This document shows, in pieces, positions 6,694 to 19,988 of a stretch of 39,527 nucleotides of DNA (position 1 is its first letter; each line of letters opens with the position of its first letter). This DNA is from Gaiellaceae bacterium. Its GTDB lineage: Bacteria; Actinomycetota; Thermoleophilia; Gaiellales; Gaiellaceae. The DNA lies in contig JBDSOJ010000244.1 in NCBI GenBank assembly GCA_039914895.1, positions 1 to 39,527 of the forward strand. The letters are read 5' to 3'. Below the pieces are notes generated by a model. It saw only the letters and a list, made by a program, of their open reading frames with translations, was not told the origin of the DNA and did no database searches. The translations under genes were made by a program, and so were the position numbers.

Positions 6694-9179
6694 GGCAGCG
6701 CCTCGAGCCAGTCGAGCGGCGCCGGGTCGAGCAGCAGCAGCCCGGCGGGGACGGGGACGCCGCCGGCGCCGACCGCGGGCTGCTGGGCGAGCAGCCTCTC
6801 GGCGAGACCGGGTGTGGCGCCCGCGTAGAGCCGGTCGATGTCCACCGCCAGCACGCCTCGCACGGTGTGCGCCGCCGCCGTCACCTCGGAGCGGAACACG
6901 GGCTCGACGGAGCCGCGCGCCTCGAAGGAATACGCGGCCCGCAGGGCGCCCTCGACGCCGGTCAGCACGACCGCCTGCTCGTAAGCGGGATCGACCGCCA
7001 CCCTGAGCGCGAGCCGGAAGGTCGCGAGCTCAGCCTCGAGCACCGCCACCTGGACGCGAGGATCTCCGTGGGCGCGCAACGTCTCGGCGAGGTCGTCGAG
7101 TCGGTCCGCGGCCGTCTGACCCGATGCGCCGGACAGCGCGACGGTGACGACGACCGTCCTGCCGCCGCGGAGGGGGAGCACGGCGGCGTGCGCCTTCGCC
7201 ACTCCGGCGAAGGCGCGGGCGAAGTCCTCGTAGTCGAGCAGGGACACGGCGCGACCGAGCGTCCGCATCGCCAGCGGGATCGACGCGCGTGCGGACTCCT
7301 CCCCCTCGGGGTCGACGCCGCCGCCGGCCGCCAGCGGGTTGCTCACGCCCTTCGCGCCGAGCGGACGGTCGAGCAGCTGCGCGAGCGCGCCCGCGCCGAC
7401 GTTCCCGGCCGCGCCCAGCCCCTTTCGGTACCGAGCCCTGACGTTGGTGCTCCCGGTCGGCAGCCTGGCGCCCCGCTCCCCGTCGCCGAACTGCACGTAG
7501 GTCGCGCCCTGCTCGTCCGTGCGGACGGCGTAGGCCCGGTCACGAGGGCCGGCGCCGTAGAGCGTCGGCAGCTCGTCCCAGCGGACGTCGTTGACGCGCA
7601 CCTCGAGGGCCGAGTCGGCACCCGACGGATCGGTGGACTGGGTGTACGTGAGCGGGTCGTGGGCGAGCGCGAAGCGCTGGAAGGCCGCCGCGGCGCGGCC
7701 GGAGCCGAGCAGCTGCCGCACCGTCTCGCCGTGCGTGGCCAGAGCCACGTTGCCGTGCACGACGACGGTCGTGCGGTCGTATGCCGTCGCGAGATCGTCA
7801 GCGAGGACAAGGCGCCAGCGGCCGGCGACCTTCTGCACCTGGTCGAGCACGCCGGCCTCGGCGTGCTCCTCGCCCGACGCGGTGAGTCCACGGACGAGCA
7901 GGCGACGACCCGGGCGCATCGCCGAGACGTCGACGTCGACCTCGACGAAGCCGCCCTCGACGTCGCTCTCGTCCGGCGCCTCGGCGAGCGTCAGCGGCTC
8001 GCTGACGGCAAGAACGGTGGTCTCGCGCACCTCGACGTCGAACTCGTCGTAGTTCTCGCCGGCTTCGAGCGTCAGGCGCGTGACCTTGCCGGAGGTCGCA
8101 AACTCGGCCCGGGAGAGCTCGTCGACCAGCCTCACGCGCCAGAGCTCGCGGTAGGCCGGCGTCGACAGCACGATCCAGGAGCCCGGCACGACGTCCGGAT
8201 GCGACCCGTCCAGGTCGACGGTGGCCGCGAGCGGCCCGATCTTGTAGAGCGGCCACTCGTCGTCCTTCAAGTCTCCTTCCGGATAGTTCTCGCGGAAGTC
8301 CTCGGACATCGAGAGCCACATCGGCGCGTTGTGCCCGAAGATGTTGACGCGCTTGCGCAGCACGAACGGCTCCGGCGGGTTGGCGGGCTCGACGTAGGGG
8401 TCGAGCGAACCGAGCGGCTCGGCCCACCGCACCAGGGTTCGCTCGGCGGCGGCGTCGACCTCGACCTCGCTGAGCAGCCGGAGATCCCAGTGCTCGTTCA
8501 GGACGTCGGAGCCGGCGAGCAGGAAGGCGTCGCCGGGCTTCAGGTTGAGCGCCGCGCCCTGGAGGTAGGCGTGGGTGGCGCCGAGGCCCGGCACGAACGG
8601 CTTCGTCAGCGAGGCTGCAAGCGCGTTCCACTCGGGCCGCGCCTCGACCGTCTCCACGGTCTCGAAGGTCTGCGGCTGCTCGCCGGGGCCGGGGATGCTC
8701 TGCACGCGCAGCCCCGGCTCCAGTACGACCTCGGCCGGGGTCACCGGCGGAGCGGTACCCGGGTCTCGCGACAATCCAGGAGGAACCCCGGGCGGCGGCT
8801 CGAGAGCGAAGGCCAGGTGCGTCTCGGCCGCGACTCCCGGCCGCAGCTGGTAGCCGATCAGCCGTCCGAGCTCCTGGAGCGAGATCCGTTCTCGAGCGGT
8901 GCGCAGGTAGGACTCCTGCGCGAGGCGCTCGCTGTAGAAGGTGAGCACGTCGGCCGTGACCGCCCAGGAATCGAGCAGCGCGATCGAGAAGTCGTCGCGC
9001 TCGCGGGTGCCGAGTCCGGCGAGCCGCGGCCGGGCCGAGTGGGTCAGCCCGGCGAGCAGGGACGCGAGGAAGTCCGGGTGCGTCCCGATCCGGTAGCCGA
9101 TCGCCGAGAGCCCCGGGCGGTTCCGCACCTCGAGCGGGGTGCGCTCCGTGACGCCCGAGCAGCAGCCGCAGGCGCTCAC
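6690..9179 (-). CDS. Baseplate J-like (putative baseplate assembly) protein, paralog 2
   Basis: The real start is the GTG at 9179, overlapping the upstream TGA; the track ORF extends to 9677. The N-terminus is SACGCCSGVTERTPLEVRNRPGLSAIGYRIGTHPDF. The C-terminal part carries the baseplate-J signature GNVGAGALAQLL...NPLAAGGGVDPEGEESAR...GRAVSLLDYEDFA. Confidence 0.8.
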   Translation of the reverse strand: MSACGCCSGVTERTPLEVRNRPGLSAIGYRIGTHPDFLASLLAGLTHSARPRLAGLGTRERDDFSIALLDSWAVTADVLTFYSERLAQESYLRTARERISLQELGRLIGYQLRPGVAAETHLAFALEPPPGVPPGLSRDPGTAPPVTPAEVVLEPGLRVQSIPGPGEQPQTFETVETVEARPEWNALAASLTKPFVPGLGATHAYLQGAALNLKPGDAFLLAGSDVLNEHWDLRLLSEVEVDAAAERTLVRWAEPLGSLDPYVEPANPPEPFVLRKRVNIFGHNAPMWLSMSEDFRENYPEGDLKDDEWPLYKIGPLAATVDLDGSHPDVVPGSWIVLSTPAYRELWRVRLVDELSRAEFATSGKVTRLTLEAGENYDEFDVEVRETTVLAVSEPLTLAEAPDESDVEGGFVEVDVDVSAMRPGRRLLVRGLTASGEEHAEAGVLDQVQKVAGRWRLVLADDLATAYDRTTVVVHGNVALATHGETVRQLLGSGRAAAAFQRFALAHDPLTYTQSTDPSGADSALEVRVNDVRWDELPTLYGAGPRDRAYAVRTDEQGATYVQFGDGERGARLPTGSTNVRARYRKGLGAAGNVGAGALAQLLDRPLGAKGVSNPLAAGGGVDPEGEESARASIPLAMRTLGRAVSLLDYEDFARAFAGVAKAHAAVLPLRGGRTVVVTVALSGASGQTAADRLDDLAETLRAHGDPRVQVAVLEAELATFRLALRVAVDPAYEQAVVLTGVEGALRAAYSFEARGSVEPVFRSEVTAAAHTVRGVLAVDIDRLYAGATPGLAERLLAQQPAVGAGGVPVPAGLLLLDPAPLDWLEALP

Positions 9180-11923
9180 TTGCCGCCTCCCGCGCTCAGC
9201 ACGAGCACGCCGTGCTCGGGGAAGCTCGGATCGTCGTCGAGCCTCGCGATCTCGAGCCCGTCCAGCGTCAGCACGCCGGTGTCGAGGGCCGACGACGCGT
9301 CGTCGCGCTGGCGCTGGAAAGCGGTCGCGGTCACCGACTGCACTCCCGGGACGGCCTGCGCGGCGGCCACGATCACCGAGAGGTAAACGGGCTGGCCGAA
9401 CGTGAACCGGTCGGGGTGGAAGAACCCGAGCGTCCCGTCCGGGCGGACCCGGCTCGAGAGGACGTCGAGCACCGCCGCCTTCACGTGTGAGCGGAAGTAG
9501 TCGGGCTCGACGCACACGTGGAGCCCGACCTCGAGCGGCACGAACCGCGGGCCGTCGACCTCGAGGTCGTAGCCTGCCATCCGGAACGGCTCCAGGTGAC
9601 GCCGGATCCCGCGCTCGAACGTCTCGTCGACGGCGCTGCCGCCCGCGCGGTCGGCCGTGACGAAGACCGTGTGCCACGAGCCGGTCCAGCGGAACCGCGC
9701 CGCAGCCCGCTGGACCAGCGGGCTGCGCTCGGTGACCAGCGCATAGTCGTCGGCGGTCACGGCGCGCTGCTGGACGAGGAACGCCTCGGGGGCGTCGCGA
9801 CGCACGGCCTCCGCGGGCTCGGCGTCGACGCCCCCGGTGGCCGCGAGCGCGTTGTCGACGCCGAGCAGGCCGGGCTGGGCGGTGACGACGTGAGCGATCG
9901 CACTCGCGCCGACGTTGCCGGCCGTCCCGTTGCCGACCCGATATGTGGCCTCGAAGACCGTACCCTGCTCGGGTCGGCGGCCGTGCGCGCCGTCCCCGAA
10001 GCGCAGCGTCGCGGCTCCGTCGTGCTCGACCTCGACGACGAACTCGGCCGCGCCACCGTCGCTGGCGAGCAGGTCGGCCTGCGGTTGCCAGGGCTCAGTT
10101 GCGGCGAGGAGCGTCCCCTCGAGCTCGATCGCCGGCCTCGCAGCCCGAGCGTCGGCGGCGTCGGCGGCGGCGGCGACGGTCGCCGCGGCCGAAGCGGGCC
10201 GCTCGAGCACGTTGAGGATCCCCGTCACGGCGTCCAGGCGCAGGAGGGCGACCGTGACCCCGTCGCTCACCGACCACACGTCGTCGTCGCCGCGCACGAC
10301 GGCTGGCCCGACCTCGAACGAGAACCCTCGCTCCTCCAGCCAGTCGTGCAATGCCGCGTCGAACGTCAATCCCTGCAGGGCGATCGTGAGCGCCGGCGTG
10401 ATCGCGCCCTCCGCGACCACCCGCGTCGGTGCGGGTCGGGCGTGCGTGAGCGGGGCGCTCGCAAGCGTCGGGCGGAAACGCGCCGGCACCGGCTGAACCT
10501 CGGGCCGCTCGCAAGGGTCGCAGGCGGGCTCGCCGACGGAGCTGAGCACCGGCTCCGGCACCTCGCCGAGAAACTCGCCGGCGATCGTGCGCCCGTGATC
10601 GGCGAGCACGACGTTCCCCCACGCCTCGCCCACGACCAGCCCGGGCTGATCCTCGACGGAGATGCAGAGCGGGAACGGCAGCGCGTCCGCCTTGTCCCAC
10701 GCGATCTCCGTGACCACGACCGAGGCGTTCGTGGGCGGGTCGGCGAAGAGGCCGCCCGACGGGTCGAGCGACGGCACGACGTGGGTCAGGCGGACCGCCG
10801 CCCGCCTGGCCGGATCGGCGTCCTCGGGCTGGCCGGTGATCGGTCCGACCACCTCAGCGAGCACGAGGACGTCGCCCGCCCTCAGCGCGGGGTGGTCGCC
10901 GACGAGCGTGGCCGAGGTCGCCCCGCGCGGCAGGCAGCAGCCAGCGTCGCCCCATGTCCAGAAGTCGAAGCGCACGTGGGACTCGTAGAGCACCGCGTCG
11001 TCCATGATCTCGAAGGTTTCGGCGCCCGCGGCCAGCGCTGCGCGGTGGGCCGGCCCACCCGGCTCGACGACGGCCGGCACGTCCGGAACGCGGGTCAGGA
11101 GCGGGGTGCGCCGGTCGAGCGAGACGCCCTCAGCCTCCACCACGACCCGCATCCAGGCCCGTGCGTTCGAGCCCTCGTGCACGAGATAGTCGACCAACCG
11201 CGCGTGGCGGCGTAGCGAGGCGCGCCGGCGGGCGGTGGCAAGGTAGGCCTCGGTGGCGACGGCGTCCTGGCAGTACGACAGCTCGTCGGCGACGTAGGCG
11301 AGTGTCTCGACGAGGGCGACGCCGACGTCCGCCGGGCTGCGCTCGGCCCACCCGGGCGCGAGCAGGCTCAGCCGGTCGAGCATGAGCGCGCGGAAGGTGC
11401 CGTAGTCCTTCGCGAGATAGTCGATCGCCGGCCCCTCGGCCGACTCGCGTCCGCACTGGCACTGCGGCCCGCAGTCGAAGCCGGACGGGCATTCGACCTT
11501 GAACGAGAACTCGACCGCCGCGAGCAGCGGATCGAAGCCGGCGGGCACGGCGTCGCTCCCGGCGCCGGCAACGAGTCGCAGCGTGTAGCGCGAGAAGTCG
11601 CCCCGCGAGCTCGTCCGGACGAGCAGGACGGTGGCCGGGTCCTCGAGCCCGGCGACGAGCGACGGGGCCTCGCCGGCCGGCAGCGTCGTCGCCGGCGCGA
11701 CCCAGTCGACCCCGACCGTCGCGATCCGCTCGCCGCCGGCGACGACTACGTTGGCCGGCCCGAACGCAGGCGGAGGCTGCAGCAGCCGCACGAACAACGT
11801 CCGCTGCTGCAGGGCGTCGCTCGGCGCCTCGGAGTCGGACACCTCGAGGTACTCGATGCCGTTCAGCGCGCCGGCCTCCTTCACGGCCTGGAGCCGCCGC
11901 TCGTCGCAGCAGGCGTACTTCAC
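9176..11923 (-). CDS. Baseplate J-like (gp6/Afp11-like) protein, paralog 1
   Basis: The real start is the GTG at 11923, overlapping the gp25-like stop; the track ORF extends to 12055. The N-terminus is KYACCDERRLQAVK. The baseplate-J signature is GNVGASAIAHVV...NALAATGGVDAEPAEAVRRDAPEAF...RAVTADDYA. Confidence 0.8.
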   Translation of the reverse strand: MKYACCDERRLQAVKEAGALNGIEYLEVSDSEAPSDALQQRTLFVRLLQPPPAFGPANVVVAGGERIATVGVDWVAPATTLPAGEAPSLVAGLEDPATVLLVRTSSRGDFSRYTLRLVAGAGSDAVPAGFDPLLAAVEFSFKVECPSGFDCGPQCQCGRESAEGPAIDYLAKDYGTFRALMLDRLSLLAPGWAERSPADVGVALVETLAYVADELSYCQDAVATEAYLATARRRASLRRHARLVDYLVHEGSNARAWMRVVVEAEGVSLDRRTPLLTRVPDVPAVVEPGGPAHRAALAAGAETFEIMDDAVLYESHVRFDFWTWGDAGCCLPRGATSATLVGDHPALRAGDVLVLAEVVGPITGQPEDADPARRAAVRLTHVVPSLDPSGGLFADPPTNASVVVTEIAWDKADALPFPLCISVEDQPGLVVGEAWGNVVLADHGRTIAGEFLGEVPEPVLSSVGEPACDPCERPEVQPVPARFRPTLASAPLTHARPAPTRVVAEGAITPALTIALQGLTFDAALHDWLEERGFSFEVGPAVVRGDDDVWSVSDGVTVALLRLDAVTGILNVLERPASAAATVAAAADAADARAARPAIELEGTLLAATEPWQPQADLLASDGGAAEFVVEVEHDGAATLRFGDGAHGRRPEQGTVFEATYRVGNGTAGNVGASAIAHVVTAQPGLLGVDNALAATGGVDAEPAEAVRRDAPEAFLVQQRAVTADDYALVTERSPLVQRAAARFRWTGSWHTVFVTADRAGGSAVDETFERGIRRHLEPFRMAGYDLEVDGPRFVPLEVGLHVCVEPDYFRSHVKAAVLDVLSSRVRPDGTLGFFHPDRFTFGQPVYLSVIVAAAQAVPGVQSVTATAFQRQRDDASSALDTGVLTLDGLEIARLDDDPSFPEHGVLVLSAGGGK

Positions 11924-12279
11924 GGCGTCCCCCGCGAGAACGACGCCGAGCCTTGCTCCCGTGTGCGCAGGTCGACGTACGCCACGGTGACCGAGAGCTC
12001 GCCCTCGACCTGCCGGACCTCGACCGAGTCGACGGCGATGAGGTGCCCGAGCCATTGCTGGAGCGCGCCCTGCACGAGGTGCTGGGTCGTGGCGACGAGC
12101 TCCGGGCCGCCGGGCTCGAAGACGAGGTCGAGCAGCCCGCTGCCGAAGTCCGGCCTCATCACCCGCTCGCCCGGGGTGGTGAAGAGCACCTGCTCGATCA
12201 GGTCGCGCAGGTGGCCGTCCGCGCCGGTGTCGGCCGTTCGGCCGCGCCCGTCGACGTGGTAGGGGAAGTCGACGGTCAC
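11920..12279 (-). CDS. gp25/GPW-like baseplate wedge protein
   Basis: These are the last 119 codons of track ORF 11920..13155. The GTG at 12279 overlaps the PAAR-like stop (GTGA). The motif LIEQVLFTTPGERVMRPDFGSGLLDLVFEP is the gp25-family hallmark. Confidence 0.85.
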   Translation of the reverse strand: MTVDFPYHVDGRGRTADTGADGHLRDLIEQVLFTTPGERVMRPDFGSGLLDLVFEPGGPELVATTQHLVQGALQQWLGHLIAVDSVEVRQVEGELSVTVAYVDLRTREQGSASFSRGTP

Positions 12280-12593
12280 GTGACGAGCACCCGCGGTTGG
12301 GCGGACAGGGGCAGCATCGGCGTCCCGGTGGGGATGCACGTAGAGGCGCCGGCCATCGTCGCGACCGGCACTCCGCCCGCCAGCACGCGCACCGCGCCGG
12401 CCAGCCACTGTCCCGTGACGCAGGGAGGCGTGGGCGTGCCGGTGAGCGCGCAGCCGGTGACGGCGTAGGGAGAGGAGATCGTCACGAGTGGCTGCCCCGA
12501 GAGGAGCACGCGCGGGAACGGCGAGAGCGGCTGGGCCGGTCCCGCGTGGGAGCACGTGACCACGGCGCCGAGATGGAGGGCGGGAACGGGCAT
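12276..12593 (-). CDS. PAAR-like (DUF4280-type) spike tip protein
   Basis: The protein is 105 aa and Cys/Gly/Pro-rich (TCSHAG, TGCALTG, PPCVTGQW, ASTCIPTG). It sits between the spike and the gp25-like gene, as in other CIS loci. There is no literal PAAR motif, so I call it PAAR-like only. Confidence 0.6.
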   Translation of the reverse strand: MPVPALHLGAVVTCSHAGPAQPLSPFPRVLLSGQPLVTISSPYAVTGCALTGTPTPPCVTGQWLAGAVRVLAGGVPVATMAGASTCIPTGTPMLPLSAQPRVLVT

Positions 12594-12594
12594 T

Positions 12595-12758
12595 AGTGCT
12601 CCCCGCCGTAAATACGGTCGTGATTCGCCGGCGAGAACCGAGCAGGCCTAGGACGCAGGGAGCCCCGATATGCAGGCATATCGGGGCGACCGAGGACGAC
12701 TGCATGCGAAGCGTTCGCGGCCCCGCGAAGCGTGTGCGTATTTGCGGCGGGGAGCACT
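12595..12758 (-). promoter_or_regulatory. Structured 164-nt intergenic element closed by a 22-nt inverted repeat that includes the ribosome-binding site of the PAAR-like gene
   Basis: AGTGCTCCCCGCCGTAAATACG (12595-12616) and CGTATTTGCGGCGGGGAGCACT (12737-12758) are complementary at 21 of 22 positions. An internal perfect hairpin lies at 12662-12687 (GCCCCGATATGC / GCATATCGGGGC). Smaller GC hairpins lie at about 12706-12732. Confidence 0.6.
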
Positions 12759-12761
12759 TGG

Positions 12762-13286
12762 TCACACCACCGTCAGCGCGCCCAGGTTGATGTCGACGCT
12801 TGGCCCGACCATGTTGATCGTCGCGCCCTTGCCGTTCGAGATCACGATCCCGACGTCGCTGACGGAGAGCATCGCCCCCGTCGTCGTCTGGATCATGATC
12901 CCGCCGGTGGGACCCGGAACGTCGCTGACGACGATCCCGTTCTTGAGCGTCGTCTGGATCGTGATCCCGTTGACGGCGGGCGGCACCGAGCGCGCCAACA
13001 CCGGCACCTCGGCAGCGGTGCCCCAGTACCCGCCCACCCAGATCGGCCGGTCGGGGTCGCCCTGCTCGAACTCCATCCAGACGCCGGACCCGATCTGCGG
13101 CACGGTGAAGACGCCGGTGTTGATCCCGGCCACGGGCACGCACGGCATCGCCCACGAGGTCGGCGCCACACCCGAGACGTCGGGCACGATCGCCATGATC
13201 CGCCCGATCTGCAGCGGGTCGACGTTGTTGACGACCGTGCCGCGGAACTTGCCGTAGTAGCGCTGCTGAACCGCGACCTCGCTCAT
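12762..13286 (-). CDS. gp5/gpV-like spike (OB-fold plus beta-helical needle)
   Basis: YGKFRGTVVNNVDPLQIGRIMAIVPDV...GVWMEFEQGDPDRPIWVGGYW is the classic gp5/VgrG OB-fold motif. The C-terminal part has short repetitive beta-strand units. The ATG at 13286 overlaps the upstream stop (ATGA). Confidence 0.9.
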   Translation of the reverse strand: MSEVAVQQRYYGKFRGTVVNNVDPLQIGRIMAIVPDVSGVAPTSWAMPCVPVAGINTGVFTVPQIGSGVWMEFEQGDPDRPIWVGGYWGTAAEVPVLARSVPPAVNGITIQTTLKNGIVVSDVPGPTGGIMIQTTTGAMLSVSDVGIVISNGKGATINMVGPSVDINLGALTVV

Positions 13287-18063: not shown

Positions 18064-19988
18064 GTCAGGCCCGCCGTCTCCGCCGCGGTCAGCGGCCGCT
18101 CCGACTTGGCGTACTCGACCTGCGCGGCGCGAAGCACGTGCGCCGGGGTCACCGGCGTCCCCTGCTCGGCGGCCCCGAACGCGGCCGAGAGGGCGATCGC
18201 CCGAATCGACCCGCCGGGTAGGGTCAGCCGCGCCAGCCGGTCTGGGTCGACGCCCTCGAGCGGCGTCGCCGCGGGGAAGACGCGCCGCCAGATCTCGGCG
18301 CGCTGTCCGGCGTCCGGGAAGGGGAACTGAACGACGAAGCGCAACCGCCGCAGGAACGCTCGGTCGAGGTTGCTGCGCAGGTTCGAGGTCAGGATCGCAA
18401 GCCCGCGATACGACTCCATCCGCTGGAGGAGATAGGCGACCTCGAGGTTCGCGTAGCGGTCGTGCCCGTCCCTCACCTCGCCGCGCTTGCCGAACAGCGC
18501 GTCCGCCTCGTCGAAGAGGAGGACGGCCCCGCCGGCCTCGGCGGCGTCGAACAGGCGACGCAGGTTCTTCTCGGTCTCGCCGATGTACTTGCTGACGGTC
18601 GCCGAGAGGTCGATCCGGTAGAGATCGAGCTCGAGGTCGGCTGCGAGCACCTCCGCGGCCATCGTCTTGCCTGTGCCGCTCTCACCCGTGAAGAGCGCCG
18701 TGACGCCGAGCCCGCGGGCGCTGCGCTCGCCGAAGCCCCAGCGCTCGTAGACCTGGGTGCGGTGGCGGACGTGGCGGGCGACCTCGCGCAGCAGCTCCGT
18801 CTGGCCGGCGGGCAGAACGAGCTCGTCCCAATTCGCCGTCGGCTCGATGCGCTCGGCGAGGCCGTCCAGGCGGACGCGGGCGCGCTCACGGCAGAGGCGC
18901 CTGAAGGTCACAGGGAGGTCGACTCCGTCGGCCGACGACGACAGCTCCCGCACGACGGCGTCGACGGCCGCGGCACCGAGCCGATAATGCTGCGCAGCCT
19001 GCTCCACCTCGGCTTCGAGGGTCTTCGAGAGGTCTGCTCCGAGGCTGCGGCGCCAGAGCGCGCGCTGCTCGGCCGGCGAGGGCAGCGCCACAGAGCGGCG
19101 GAGCTCGACCCGGCCCGGGATGCGCTCGTCGTGCTCGCCGACGAGGACGACGAGCGGGCTCTCGAGCAGATCGAGCAGGGCAGCGACCGCGGGTTCGCTC
19201 CCGCGTTCCGCGTCCACGACCGGGAGTCCGTTGAGCAGCAATGCCTCGCGGTCGACGAGCCGAGCCAGCTCCGCGAGCTCGGGTCCGGGCGGCGGCAGCG
19301 CCTCGGCGCGAACGAGGAGCGTCAGGCGCTCGAGCTGGGCGGCGAGCTGCTGTGCGACGCCCAGACGCGCCTCGGCGTCATCGCCCTCGAGGCGCACGAC
19401 GACCGGGGCGCCGGTGCCGGCCGCGGTCCGGGCGAGCTCCTCCCCCAGCTGTCGTTGTGACGGCGTCAGCGATGGCGACCCGAAGGCGGTCCGCAGCAGC
19501 CCGTCGAGGCGCGGGTCGGGCGAGGGCATCCCCGTCAGCTGCTGGAGCACGCGCTCGTCGAGCTGCAACCGGCGGCTCGCCAGCGTCGGCCCCGGCCCCA
19601 ACTCGAGCAGCCGCCAGCGACGGAGGGGCGAGCGGAGAGACAGAGCGCTCCAGTGCGGGTCCGGCAGGGCGGTCAGCGCCAGCCCGAAGGTCGGCCGCGG
19701 ATCTGCGGCACCGAGCAGCTCGGCGGCAAGCAACGCGACCTCCCCGTCGAGCTCGACGGCAGCGCAGAGGAGGAGGAGCTGCCGCTCGAACGGCGACAGC
19801 CCGAGCAGCCGAGCGAGCCGGTCGGCGGCCGGTTCGATTGCCGGCGGCTCGCCTGGGTCGCGCCGCGGCGGTGCTTCTCCGTCGCGGTAGGCGAGAAGCA
19901 GCGCGCGCGCGTGCGCGATCTCGCCGGACAGCCACTCCTGTTCGAGCTCGACGTACGTGAGCTCGAGCCGCTCGGCCACGGCGGTCAT
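18060..19988 (-). CDS. AAA+ ATPase (Afp15-like CIS assembly ATPase)
   Basis: The real start is the ATG at 19988, overlapping the cap-gene stop (ATGA); the track ORF runs on to 21308. The protein has Walker A GESGTGKT and Walker B LLFDEADALF, followed by SNLRSNLDRAFLRRLRF. Confidence 0.9.
   Translation of the reverse strand: MTAVAERLELTYVELEQEWLSGEIAHARALLLAYRDGEAPPRRDPGEPPAIEPAADRLARLLGLSPFERQLLLLCAAVELDGEVALLAAELLGAADPRPTFGLALTALPDPHWSALSLRSPLRRWRLLELGPGPTLASRRLQLDERVLQQLTGMPSPDPRLDGLLRTAFGSPSLTPSQRQLGEELARTAAGTGAPVVVRLEGDDAEARLGVAQQLAAQLERLTLLVRAEALPPPGPELAELARLVDREALLLNGLPVVDAERGSEPAVAALLDLLESPLVVLVGEHDERIPGRVELRRSVALPSPAEQRALWRRSLGADLSKTLEAEVEQAAQHYRLGAAAVDAVVRELSSSADGVDLPVTFRRLCRERARVRLDGLAERIEPTANWDELVLPAGQTELLREVARHVRHRTQVYERWGFGERSARGLGVTALFTGESGTGKTMAAEVLAADLELDLYRIDLSATVSKYIGETEKNLRRLFDAAEAGGAVLLFDEADALFGKRGEVRDGHDRYANLEVAYLLQRMESYRGLAILTSNLRSNLDRAFLRRLRFVVQFPFPDAGQRAEIWRRVFPAATPLEGVDPDRLARLTLPGGSIRAIALSAAFGAAEQGTPVTPAHVLRAAQVEYAKSERPLTAAETAGLT

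What the first reader, a model, noticed from the sequence alone, without database searches (positions are those of the whole stretch)
12591..12764. Long-range anti-Shine-Dalgarno helix linking spike termination to PAAR-tip initiation
This 168-nt spacer is the only long one inside the operon; all other junctions are overlaps or shorter than 25 nt. It is closed by a 22-nt inverted repeat that pairs at 21 of 22 positions. In the mRNA sense, the 5' arm (AGUGCUCCCCGCCGCAAAUACG) starts 3 nt after the spike stop codon. The 3' arm (CGUAUUUACGGCGGGGAGCACU) ends 1 nt before the PAAR-like AUG. The 3' arm contains the only SD-like sequence for that gene (GGGGAG, 12604-12599), paired to CUCCCC in the 5' arm. 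Inside the loop are a perfect 12-nt-arm hairpin (12662-12687) and further GC hairpins. A ribosome terminating on the spike gene would cover and melt the 5' arm and free the SD. That would make tip synthesis conditional on spike synthesis and plausibly lower its yield (one tip per trimeric spike). The alternative reading is a MITE-like insertion with 22-bp terminal inverted repeats.
Basis: partly seen in the sequence, partly recalled or inferred. Interest (0 to 1): 0.65.

Follow-up and report, generated by a model that had tools for sequence, protein, structure and literature searches.

The report
Mini-transposon copy between spike and tip genes
The long hairpin between the spike and tip genes of this injection-machine operon is one copy of a small mobile repeat scattered through soil Gaiellaceae genomes; it is not a switch built for this operon, although it does bury the tip gene's ribosome-binding site.

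Summary
A 168-nt spacer separates the spike stop from the PAAR-like ATG. It is closed by 22-nt arms pairing 21/22, and the only SD-like motif (GGGGAG) lies in the 3' arm. The interpretation does not hold as a locus-specific device. The spacer is a 162-bp palindromic MITE (12596-12757), and the "anti-SD helix" is its terminal inverted repeats. This MAG has 12 copies, four of them inside the ribosomal-protein cluster. Relatives carry 0-33 copies within the genus and up to 91 in another family of the order. The only congener with this CIS has the empty site (spike stop and PAAR start overlap as TGATG). In 27 of 32 homologous CIS loci across phyla the junction is an overlap or at most 26 nt. A TA target duplication is shown by an empty/filled pair at rpsK|rpsD. 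No Rfam family and no resident IS630-type transposase were found. The subfamily is unusual. It sits exactly in TA(A/G)TG stop/start overlaps, its TIR supplies a replacement SD, and its core is on the mRNA strand in 57/60 copies. It is 54 codons long with an open frame, yet it folds better on the antisense strand. Any translational coupling of tip to spike synthesis is a plausible by-product and is untested.

The parts
12596..12757 (-). Body of the MITE copy, GTGCTCCCC...GGGGAGCAC, 162 nt (short subfamily)
   Evidence: Sequence. End definition GTG...CAC and the 162-nt length match 24 of 32 clean copies. Member of the family by nhmmer (E = 4.6e-16) and by covariance model R1 (E = 2.0e-16, 88.6 bits).
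12594..12595 (-). Right-hand TA of the target-site duplication; with the next A it forms TAA overlapping the PAAR ATG (TAATG)
   Evidence: The right flank is TA in 14 and TG in 11 of 32 copies. TA duplication is shown by the empty/filled pair at rpsK|rpsD.
12758..12759 (-). Left-hand flank AA, read as a decayed copy of the TA duplication (inferred)
   Evidence: The left flank is TA in 14, AA in 7 and AG in 6 of 32 copies.
12737..12758 (-).
12595..12616 (-).
12599..12604 (-). SD-like GGGGAG for the PAAR-like gene, carried by the right inverted repeat
   Evidence: Unpaired probability 0.000 in the free mRNA. GGAG or GAGG occurs in the last 17 nt of 17 of 32 copies.
12650..12698 (-). Conserved family core CGTCCTCGGTCG-hairpin-CTCCCTGCGTCCT
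   Evidence: Regex and nhmmer census; invariant columns in alignments A1 and A3.
12662..12687 (-). Apical hairpin with perfect 12-nt arms; its sequence covaries among copies
   Evidence: I10; compensatory changes.
12593..12757 (-). Open frame f0: GTG + 53 codons + TAA, ending in TAATG on the PAAR start (possible relay frame; no evidence that it is translated)
   Evidence: Listed (54 aa, GTG). Family statistics.
12762..13286 (-). Spike gene (gp5/gpV-type OB fold), stop TGA at 12762-12764
   Evidence: Pfam PF04717, E = 2.2e-19.
12276..12593 (-). PAAR-like tip gene, 105 aa
   Evidence: Weak PF05488 hit, E = 0.04. 32 homologues follow a spike gene directly.
11920..12282 (-). gp25-like baseplate gene overlapping the PAAR stop (shows that the next junction is an overlap)
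   Evidence: PF04965, E = 2.8e-15.

Best explanation
The spacer is a 162-bp non-autonomous palindromic transposon (MITE). It belongs to a family spread through Gaiellaceae and related families of the same order (I read this order as Gaiellales; that name is my assignment). The copy is inserted at a TA next to the PAAR start, in what used to be a tight stop/start junction. The GGGGAG is part of the right repeat and now stands in for the original SD, which would have lain in the 3' end of the spike gene.

Shown here: family membership, the inverted repeats, the TA duplication, empty sites, and full in-silico sequestration of the SD.

Inferred: in the mRNA the hairpin puts the spike stop and the PAAR start side by side. 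PAAR translation would then most likely depend on ribosomes arriving from the spike gene. They could act by unzipping the foot of the helix at termination or by reading the 54-codon open frame through the element to the TAATG. RNase III cleavage of the long stem is a further possible route. This coupling is a side effect of the insertion that the cell tolerates. It is not a device evolved to set tip:spike stoichiometry.
For: Copy census:
- 12 full copies in the own genome (E <= 2e-11; the next hit has E = 0.09). Four lie in the ribosomal-protein cluster: secY|adk, rpsK|rpsD, before rplQ, and before a HAD-like gene.
- Covariance model R1 finds the family in 22 of 24 congeners (0-33 copies each) and in three other families of the order (up to 91 copies).
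- In soil metagenomes the depth over the element is 100-1000 times that of its flanks.

Empty sites:
- G012 (a Gaiellaceae MAG) reads ...GTCGTCTGATGCCGGCT... with no spacer.
- Three metagenome contigs skip 167-169 nt at exactly this place.
- 27 of 32 homologous spike|PAAR junctions are overlaps or at most 26 nt.

TA duplication:
- The empty rpsK|rpsD site gtcTAGTGgcc (G014) compares with the filled site gtcTA|GTGGCC...AACCAC|TA|GTGgcc (G017). This junction was empty in all 18 newly fetched relatives in which it could be read.
- TA flanks 14 of 32 copies on each side, against a genome-wide TA dinucleotide frequency of 0.96%.

Placement and structure:
- In 24 of 30 copies the downstream start begins exactly 2 nt after the element. 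In 22 of 31 the upstream stop ends at its first base.
- The hairpin is kept across 23 copies: 94.5% of cells paired against 78.1% in shuffles, and 29 pairs with double changes.
- The SD is fully paired in the free mRNA.
- An RNase III gene is present in this genome.
- No Rfam family matches.
Against: - No IS630-type transposase (PF13358) is present in this genome or in 38 of 40 relatives, and no IS with matching ends was found. The mobilising enzyme is therefore unknown.
- In this particular copy only the right TA is intact; the left flank reads AA.
- This copy is only about 64% identical to any other sampled copy, yet its arms still pair 21/22. Something keeps the pairing: either selection or palindrome-templated repair. 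Function of the helix therefore cannot be excluded.
- A second Gaiellaceae MAG (L070) carries a family member at the same junction. This could mean inheritance and retention at this site and not chance.
- No transcript or translation data exist for this organism.
Confidence: 0.87

Rival explanations
1. One reading: a dedicated cis-regulatory helix, evolved for this operon, that makes PAAR synthesis conditional on spike termination and lowers its yield to one tip per trimeric spike.
For: The SD is fully sequestered in silico. The 5' arm begins 3 nt after the stop and the 3' arm ends 1 nt before the AUG. The arms pair 21/22 although the copy is strongly diverged from all others. A related Gaiellaceae CIS locus (L070) also has a family member at this junction.
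Against: The same element, with the same stop-to-start fit, sits in unrelated operons such as rpsK|rpsD, secY|adk and ybeY. 27 of 32 homologous junctions have no spacer, including the only congener with this CIS. The anti-SD and SD motifs are generic features of the family's inverted repeats. With a ribosome parked on the stop, the SD is freed only to 0.07-0.15.
Confidence: 0.04
2. Operon-compatible (exapted) MITE. The short subfamily persists in essential operons because it rebuilds what it breaks. Its first G restores a TAG stop. Its right repeat supplies an SD at the original spacing. Its 54-codon open frame runs from the terminal GTG, which overlaps the upstream stop, to a TSD-derived stop that overlaps the downstream start. 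Ribosomes would be relayed through the hairpin by this frame, and translational coupling would be kept.
For: The length is 162 nt (54 codons) in 24 of 32 copies. Frame f0 is open in 26 of 32, against 10 and 13 for the other forward frames and 3 for reverse f0. Among aligned copies 19 of 20 are open, against 13.3 expected from substitution shuffles (P about 0.003). The right flank keeps T[AG][AG] in about 25 of 32 copies. At rpsK|rpsD the original GGAGG lies 8 nt before the ATG, and the repeat's GGAG replaces it at 7-8 nt. Placement in TA[AG]TG is about 57-fold enriched over the available TA sites. The core is on the sense strand in 57 of 60 copies at 46 distinct sites.
Against: GC3 of f0 is about 0.69, counted by hand on one copy, against 0.85-0.95 for host genes. 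The window copy reads the core in another frame, so the peptide is not conserved. The five secY|adk orthologues carry a stop in f0. The start, the stop and the SD all follow automatically from the repeat sequence plus the TA target. The shuffle test ignores shared ancestry.
Confidence: 0.2
3. RNase III processing site. The 22-bp stem formed by the inverted repeats is cut in the polycistronic mRNA. This separates the spike and PAAR cistrons and strips the anti-SD arm from the SD, as reported for Correia elements in Neisseria.
For: The outer stem is 22 bp and near-perfect. An RNase III gene is present at G000:C41:18390-18746. RNase III cleaves Correia-containing transcripts at the TIRs (review PMC10969869, read; PMC2649163, abstract).
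Against: No transcript-end data exist. The family folds more weakly on the mRNA strand than on the antisense strand in 23 of 23 copies. This looks like avoidance of strong mRNA structure, not selection for it.
Confidence: 0.15
4. The functional strand is the other one. The family's conserved core and hairpin would serve as a structured antisense RNA or as single-stranded DNA, for instance a transposition or replication intermediate. The mRNA-sense hairpin seen by the reader would then be only its complement.
For: The antisense strand folds better in 23 of 23 copies (mean -114.9 against -91.8 kcal/mol; -95.8 against -84.8 for the window copy). On the sense strand, C-A mismatches (40) outnumber G-U pairs (14); in the outer helix the count is 13 against 0. 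A 49-nt core is near-invariant across subfamilies with unrelated terminal repeats.
Against: No promoter-like motif was found on either strand around the element. No Rfam family matches. Almost all changes are double, with very few wobble intermediates. That pattern fits DNA palindrome maintenance as well as any RNA function.
Confidence: 0.12

Closest known systems
Correia repeat-enclosed elements (CREE/NEMIS) of Neisseria
   Same: Small (about 100-155 bp) non-autonomous elements with terminal inverted repeats and a TA target duplication. They are co-transcribed with neighbouring genes. Their paired repeats form an RNA stem that RNase III can cut (PMC2649163; PMC10969869).
   Different: The sequences are unrelated and the phyla differ. 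Correia elements are not reported to sit precisely in stop/start overlaps, to carry an SD in the repeat, or to show near-absolute sense orientation. RNase III cutting is untested here.
RUP of Streptococcus pneumoniae and other IS630/Tc1-type MITEs
   Same: TA duplication, palindromic build, and size of 100-200 bp (PMC3049150; the rest from my own knowledge).
   Different: RUP has a recognised IS630-type partner. Here PF13358 is absent from the genome and from 38 of 40 relatives, and no IS with matching ends was found.
MIRUs (mycobacterial interspersed repetitive units)
   Same: They lie between genes of operons, in one orientation relative to transcription. They carry small frames whose start and stop overlap the neighbouring genes' stop and start (my own knowledge: Supply et al. 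1997).
   Different: MIRUs are 46-101-bp tandem direct repeats, not a single long hairpin with inverted repeats and a TA duplication.
ERIC/IRU elements of enterobacteria
   Same: Imperfect palindromes of about 127 bp in transcribed intergenic regions, with orientation-dependent effects on mRNA fate in Yersinia (cited in PMC10969869).
   Different: The sequences are unrelated, the placement is less precise, and the reported mechanism is RNase E based.
Long-range anti-SD pairing in translational coupling (e.g. MS2 coat/replicase, ribosomal-protein operons)
   Same: The downstream SD is masked by pairing with an upstream segment that translating ribosomes open (my own knowledge).
   Different: Those pairings are locus-specific and conserved among orthologues. 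This one is the terminal repeat pair of a dispersed mobile element and is absent from most orthologous loci.

Membership tests
Bacterial MITE with TA duplication (Tc1/IS630-like class) | Many dispersed copies of a short element without a transposase gene | tested here: met
   12 copies in the own genome; 0-33 per congener and up to 91 in another family of the order. The element is 162 nt, and its only frame is 54 codons with no conserved peptide.
Bacterial MITE with TA duplication (Tc1/IS630-like class) | Terminal inverted repeats | tested here: met
   The window copy pairs 21/22. Family ends are GTGG(C/G)C..CC(C/T)GG / CC(A/G)GG..CCAC.
Bacterial MITE with TA duplication (Tc1/IS630-like class) | Target-site duplication (TA) | tested here: met
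   Empty gtcTAGTGgcc (G014) against filled gtcTA|GTGGCC...CCAC|TA|GTGgcc (G017). TA flanks 14 of 32 copies on each side, against a 0.96% background. In the window copy the right TA is intact and the left reads AA.
Bacterial MITE with TA duplication (Tc1/IS630-like class) | Presence/absence polymorphism at orthologous sites | tested here: met
   spike|PAAR: empty in G012 and in three metagenome contigs. rpsK|rpsD: empty in all 18 newly fetched relatives in which the junction could be read, and filled in G000, G017 and G036.
Bacterial MITE with TA duplication (Tc1/IS630-like class) | An autonomous IS with the same ends (IS630 family) | tested here: not met
   PF13358 is absent from G000 and from 38 of 40 relatives. 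The three hits have no matching termini. Other transposase families were not searched.
   27 of 32 homologous junctions are overlaps or at most 26 nt. Only L070 has the same family. L071, L072 and L076 carry unrelated inserts.
   P(unpaired) of the SD is 0.000 in the free mRNA. It is 0.01-0.15 with the 9-18 nt after the stop blocked, because the SD re-pairs downstream. This is in silico only.
Any Rfam RNA family | Match to a curated covariance model | tested here: not met
   The best hit is F6 sRNA at 23.7 bits against a gathering score of 46 (E = 0.07), on the apical hairpin only. Nothing was found for eight other copies.
MIRU | Tandem direct repeats of 46-101 bp in operon spacers | tested here: not met
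   This is a single hairpin element with no tandem array. Only the operon-junction position and the overlapping stop/start frame resemble MIRUs.
REP/REPIN (RAYT-mobilised) | 20-40-nt palindromes with a conserved 5' tetranucleotide, no duplication, and a RAYT gene | not tested
   No RAYT search was made. The TA duplication and the 162-nt unit argue against this family.

The most novel reading that the evidence does not exclude
The short subfamily is an 'operon-compatible' mobile element that lives specifically in TA(A/G)TG stop/start overlaps. It restores the upstream stop and brings its own SD. It also keeps ribosomes flowing to the next gene, either through a 54-codon relay frame or by holding stop and start together at the foot of its hairpin. 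It survives only in the orientation whose mRNA folds more weakly. In this operon it would make tip synthesis strictly dependent on spike synthesis.
Probability: 0.2. Interest if true: 0.7.

Novelty: new member of a known kind. Interest (0 to 1): 0.33.

Why it matters
For this operon the finding removes a tempting regulatory story. The spacer is an insertion, and most related injection systems do without it. More broadly, the family is uncatalogued: it has no Rfam entry, and full-text searches returned no paper describing it. It shows how a mobile repeat can settle inside essential, translationally coupled operons, including the ribosomal-protein cluster, without breaking them. It lands on the TA of a stop codon, regenerates the stop and supplies a new ribosome-binding site. 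The strict sense orientation, the better-folding antisense strand and the invariant core are unexplained and can be tested. Annotators of Thermoleophilia genomes should expect these spacers of about 165 nt at gene junctions.

Tried and rejected
- **Known RNA family.** Rfam at permissive thresholds was run on the window region and on eight other copies. Nothing meaningful was found.
- **Small protein gene.** The 54-codon frame is open, but the window copy reads the core in a different frame from the ribosomal-operon copies, the secY|adk orthologues have a stop, and GC3 is low. I rejected it as a conserved peptide and kept it only as a possible relay frame.
- **IS630 partner.** PF13358 was searched in 41 genomes and the three hits were inspected. 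No matching ends were found.
- **Promoter or intrinsic terminator in the spacer.** None was found on either strand.
- **Expression evidence.** Only soil metagenome contigs hold the stretch. The one run labelled RNA is kept as contigs and cannot show processing. It was useful only for repeat depth and empty alleles.
- **Orthology of the window copy and the L070 copy.** Identity is 64%, no higher than to any other copy, although the apical hairpin is shared. This is unresolved.
- **Covariation as proof of RNA function.** I rejected this because nearly all changes are double with few wobble intermediates, and the wobble signature lies on the antisense strand. That pattern is what palindromic DNA maintenance would also give.
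Full report
**Observation**

Read on the minus strand, the spike gene (Phage_base_V, E = 2e-19) ends with TGA at 12764-12762. The PAAR-like gene starts with ATG at 12593-12591. The 168 nt between them begin, after CCA, with AGTGCTCCCCGCCGCAAATACG. They end with CGTATTTACGGCGGGGAGCACT followed by one A. The two 22-mers pair at 21 positions, and the single mismatch is C-A. GGGGAG (12604-12599) is the only SD-like motif before the ATG. The perfect 12-nt-arm hairpin at 12662-12687 is present. The RNA folds at -92.7 kcal/mol, z = -4.15 against dinucleotide shuffles. In the partition function the SD is never unpaired. The neighbouring junctions I checked are overlaps or 3 nt, including gp25 overlapping the PAAR stop.

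**The spacer is a dispersed repeat**

A search of the window's own genome (a 2.56-Mb, 70% GC, 82%-complete MAG) with the spacer found partial matches on many contigs.
- All matches share a core: CGTCCTCAGTCG, a variable hairpin, then CTCCCTGCGTCCT.
- A regex and an nhmmer profile give 12 full copies (E <= 2e-11) and then a gap to E = 0.09.
- Four copies lie in one ribosomal-protein contig: secY|adk, rpsK|rpsD, before rplQ, and before a HAD-like gene. Others precede ybeY-, ubiX- and gltX-like genes.
- Nine of the twelve fold as one long hairpin. Its 5' foot starts 0-5 nt after the upstream stop. Its 3' foot carries GGAG or GAGG and ends at the downstream start.
- Rfam has no such family.

A covariance model of the core finds the family in 22 of 24 congeneric genomes, with 0-33 copies each. 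It also finds it in three other families of the order, with up to 91 copies. One relative's contig is a public record titled Gaiellaceae bacterium, which places the genus in Gaiellaceae (Thermoleophilia). In soil metagenomes the depth over the element is 100-1000 times that of its flanks.

**Empty sites**

The PAAR-like protein has a homologue in only one of 56 other congeners. There the spike stop and the PAAR start overlap as ...GTCGTCTGATGCCG..., and the alignment to the window shows a clean gap in place of the spacer. Three metagenome contigs from relatives skip 167-169 nt at exactly this place.

Across 32 homologous spike|PAAR loci from several phyla:
- 27 junctions are overlaps or at most 26 nt;
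- one other Gaiellaceae MAG (L070) has a member of the same family there, with different arm sequences;
- three loci carry unrelated palindromic inserts, and one has a 55-nt spacer.

**Ends, target and placement**

Copies from relatives show clean ends: TA|GTGG(C/G)C..CC(C/T)GG ... CC(A/G)GG..CCAC|TA. The rpsK|rpsD junction was fetched from 20 more relatives. It was empty in all 18 in which it could be read (gtcTAATGgcc, gtcTGATGgcc, gtcTAGTGgcc). It is filled only in G000, G017 and G036. G014 (gtcTAGTGgcc) against G017 (gtcTA|GTGGCC...AACCAC|TA|GTGgcc) is a textbook empty/filled pair with a TA duplication.

Among 32 copies with clean ends:
- 24 are exactly 162 nt long;
- TA flanks 14 on each side, against a genome-wide TA dinucleotide frequency of 0.96%;
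- the upstream stop ends at the first base of the element in 22 of 31;
- the downstream start begins exactly 2 nt after its last base in 24 of 30.

TA(A/G)TG makes up 681 of 49,426 oriented TA sites, so this placement is about 57-fold enriched.

The mechanics of insertion follow from these ends. The element lands on the TA of a TAA or TAG stop that overlaps the next start. Its first G rebuilds TAG. The orphaned right-hand TA(A/G) stays fused to the start. The GGAG of the right repeat replaces the original SD at the same spacing; at rpsK|rpsD the original is GGAGG, 8 nt before the ATG.

In the window copy the body is 12596-12757 and the right TA is 12595-12594. The left flank reads AA, which I take to be a decayed TA. 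The spike stop TGA lies 4 nt further upstream.

**What the helix is**

The helix is the pair of terminal inverted repeats. The CUCCCC/GGGGAG pairing is generic to the family.

Pairing along the whole hairpin is strongly maintained across 23 copies of 162 nt:
- 94.5% of cells are paired, against 78.1% in shuffles (0 of 500 shuffles reach the observed value);
- slid controls give 26-41%;
- 29 of 47 pairs show double changes.

Orthologous secY|adk copies in five genomes also differ by fully compensated changes in the arms.

This is not good evidence for an mRNA structure, for three reasons.
- Almost all changes are double, and only 14 cells are G-U.
- On the sense strand C-A mismatches outnumber G-U pairs 40 to 14. 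In the outer helix the count is 13 to 0.
- The antisense strand folds better in 23 of 23 copies. The mean is -114.9 against -91.8 kcal/mol, and -95.8 against -84.8 for the window copy.

Palindrome-templated repair, or generation of subfamilies by foldback copying, would give the same pattern. That alternative is inference on my part.

**Unusual traits of the subfamily**

The roughly 162-nt subfamily has its pyrimidine-rich core on the strand of the downstream gene in 57 of 60 copies, at 46 distinct sites, and 51 of these copies lie between co-directional genes. A roughly 200-nt subfamily in another family of the order has the same core but different ends (TA|GATGATTGAT...). Its orientation relative to genes is random.

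Because the terminal repeats read alike in both orientations, the bias must come from the asymmetric interior. The simplest reading is that only the orientation with the weaker mRNA hairpin, which also lacks SD-like purine runs, is tolerated inside coupled operons. This is inferred.

The frame that starts at the terminal GTG is open in 26 of 32 copies, against 10 and 13 for the other forward frames and 3 for reverse f0. It ends at the TSD-derived stop. Among aligned copies 19 of 20 are open, against 13.3 expected from substitution shuffles (P about 0.003, not corrected for shared ancestry). The peptide is not conserved, because the window copy reads the core in another frame. GC3 is low, and the secY|adk orthologues carry a stop. 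At most this is a relay frame.

**Mobilising enzyme**

PF13358 (IS630-type DDE) is absent from this genome and from 38 of 40 relatives, and the three hits have no matching ends. The TA duplication places the element in the Tc1/IS630-like class by analogy only.

**Consequences for the operon**

These are inferred. The PAAR SD is locked in a 22-bp stem. A ribosome terminating on the spike stop would open only the first bases of the arm. CUCCCC lies 10-15 nt past the first base of the stop. When blocking is simulated up to +15, the SD re-pairs with CCCUCC inside the PAAR gene, so its unpaired probability reaches only 0.07-0.15.

Three routes are therefore all open and untested:
- unzipping at termination;
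- relay through the 54-codon frame to TAATG;
- RNase III cleavage. The gene is present in this genome, and there is a precedent in Correia elements (PMC10969869; PMC2649163).

No promoter or terminator motif lies in the spacer. No usable transcript data exist.

**Earlier notes of this scan**

I consulted these after I had reached the repeat and empty-site result. They describe the same family in other Gaiellaceae and Thermoleophilia genomes as a MITE of about 168 bp with TA duplication that lands on stop codons.
- My tests agree on the kind of element and on the better-conserved purine-rich strand.
- They do not confirm an IS630 partner.
- They add that the short subfamily, unlike the long one, is strictly sense-oriented and sits in stop/start overlaps.
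- Other notes place the CIS operon on a tRNA-Gly island. I did not test this.

**Verdict**

The locus-specific regulatory reading is not supported. The element is a new member of a known kind, with some unexplained family-level traits.

Noticed in passing
G000 contig C31: cores at 18972-19021, 12787-12835, 10996-11044, 7616-7664 (all minus strand): There are four copies of the element inside one ribosomal-protein/adk/rpoA gene cluster. Each fits exactly between a stop and the next start (secY|adk, rpsK|rpsD, before rplQ, before a HAD-like gene).
   Followed up: partly
G000 C38:8469-8517, C170:10697-10744, C178:5761-5809: Three copies share the core but have different, longer outer arms (e.g. 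GAGCTCCTAACGCAGTGAAGCT...). They do not abut gene ends in the same way, so they may be a third subfamily.
   Followed up: no
L095-L114 (genome G036, another family of the order): A subfamily of about 200 nt has the same 49-nt core but unrelated ends, TA|GATGATTGATC...GATCAATCATC|TA. There are up to 91 core matches in that genome (all subfamilies together), and orientation relative to genes is random.
   Followed up: partly
L071, L072, L076 (spike|PAAR junctions in Alphaproteobacteria, Actinomycetes and Gammaproteobacteria MAGs): The same gene junction carries unrelated palindromic inserts of about 100, 170 and 310 nt in other phyla. This junction seems to tolerate or attract repeat insertions repeatedly.
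   Followed up: no
alignment A3 (23 copies), window 12596-12757: The strand antisense to the genes folds about 23 kcal/mol better in every copy. On the sense strand C-A mismatches outnumber G-U pairs 40 to 14. This is unexplained.
   Followed up: partly
G000 C41:18390-18746: An RNase III gene (PF14622, E = 1.5e-23) is present in the genome, so long stems in mRNAs could be processed.
   Followed up: no
window 12276-12593: The tip protein reaches only E = 0.04 against PAAR_motif, below the cut-off. It is PAAR-like by position, not by a clear motif match. Homologues at 43-87% identity follow spike genes in Actinomycetota, Proteobacteria, Acidobacteriota and Chloroflexota MAGs.
   Followed up: partly
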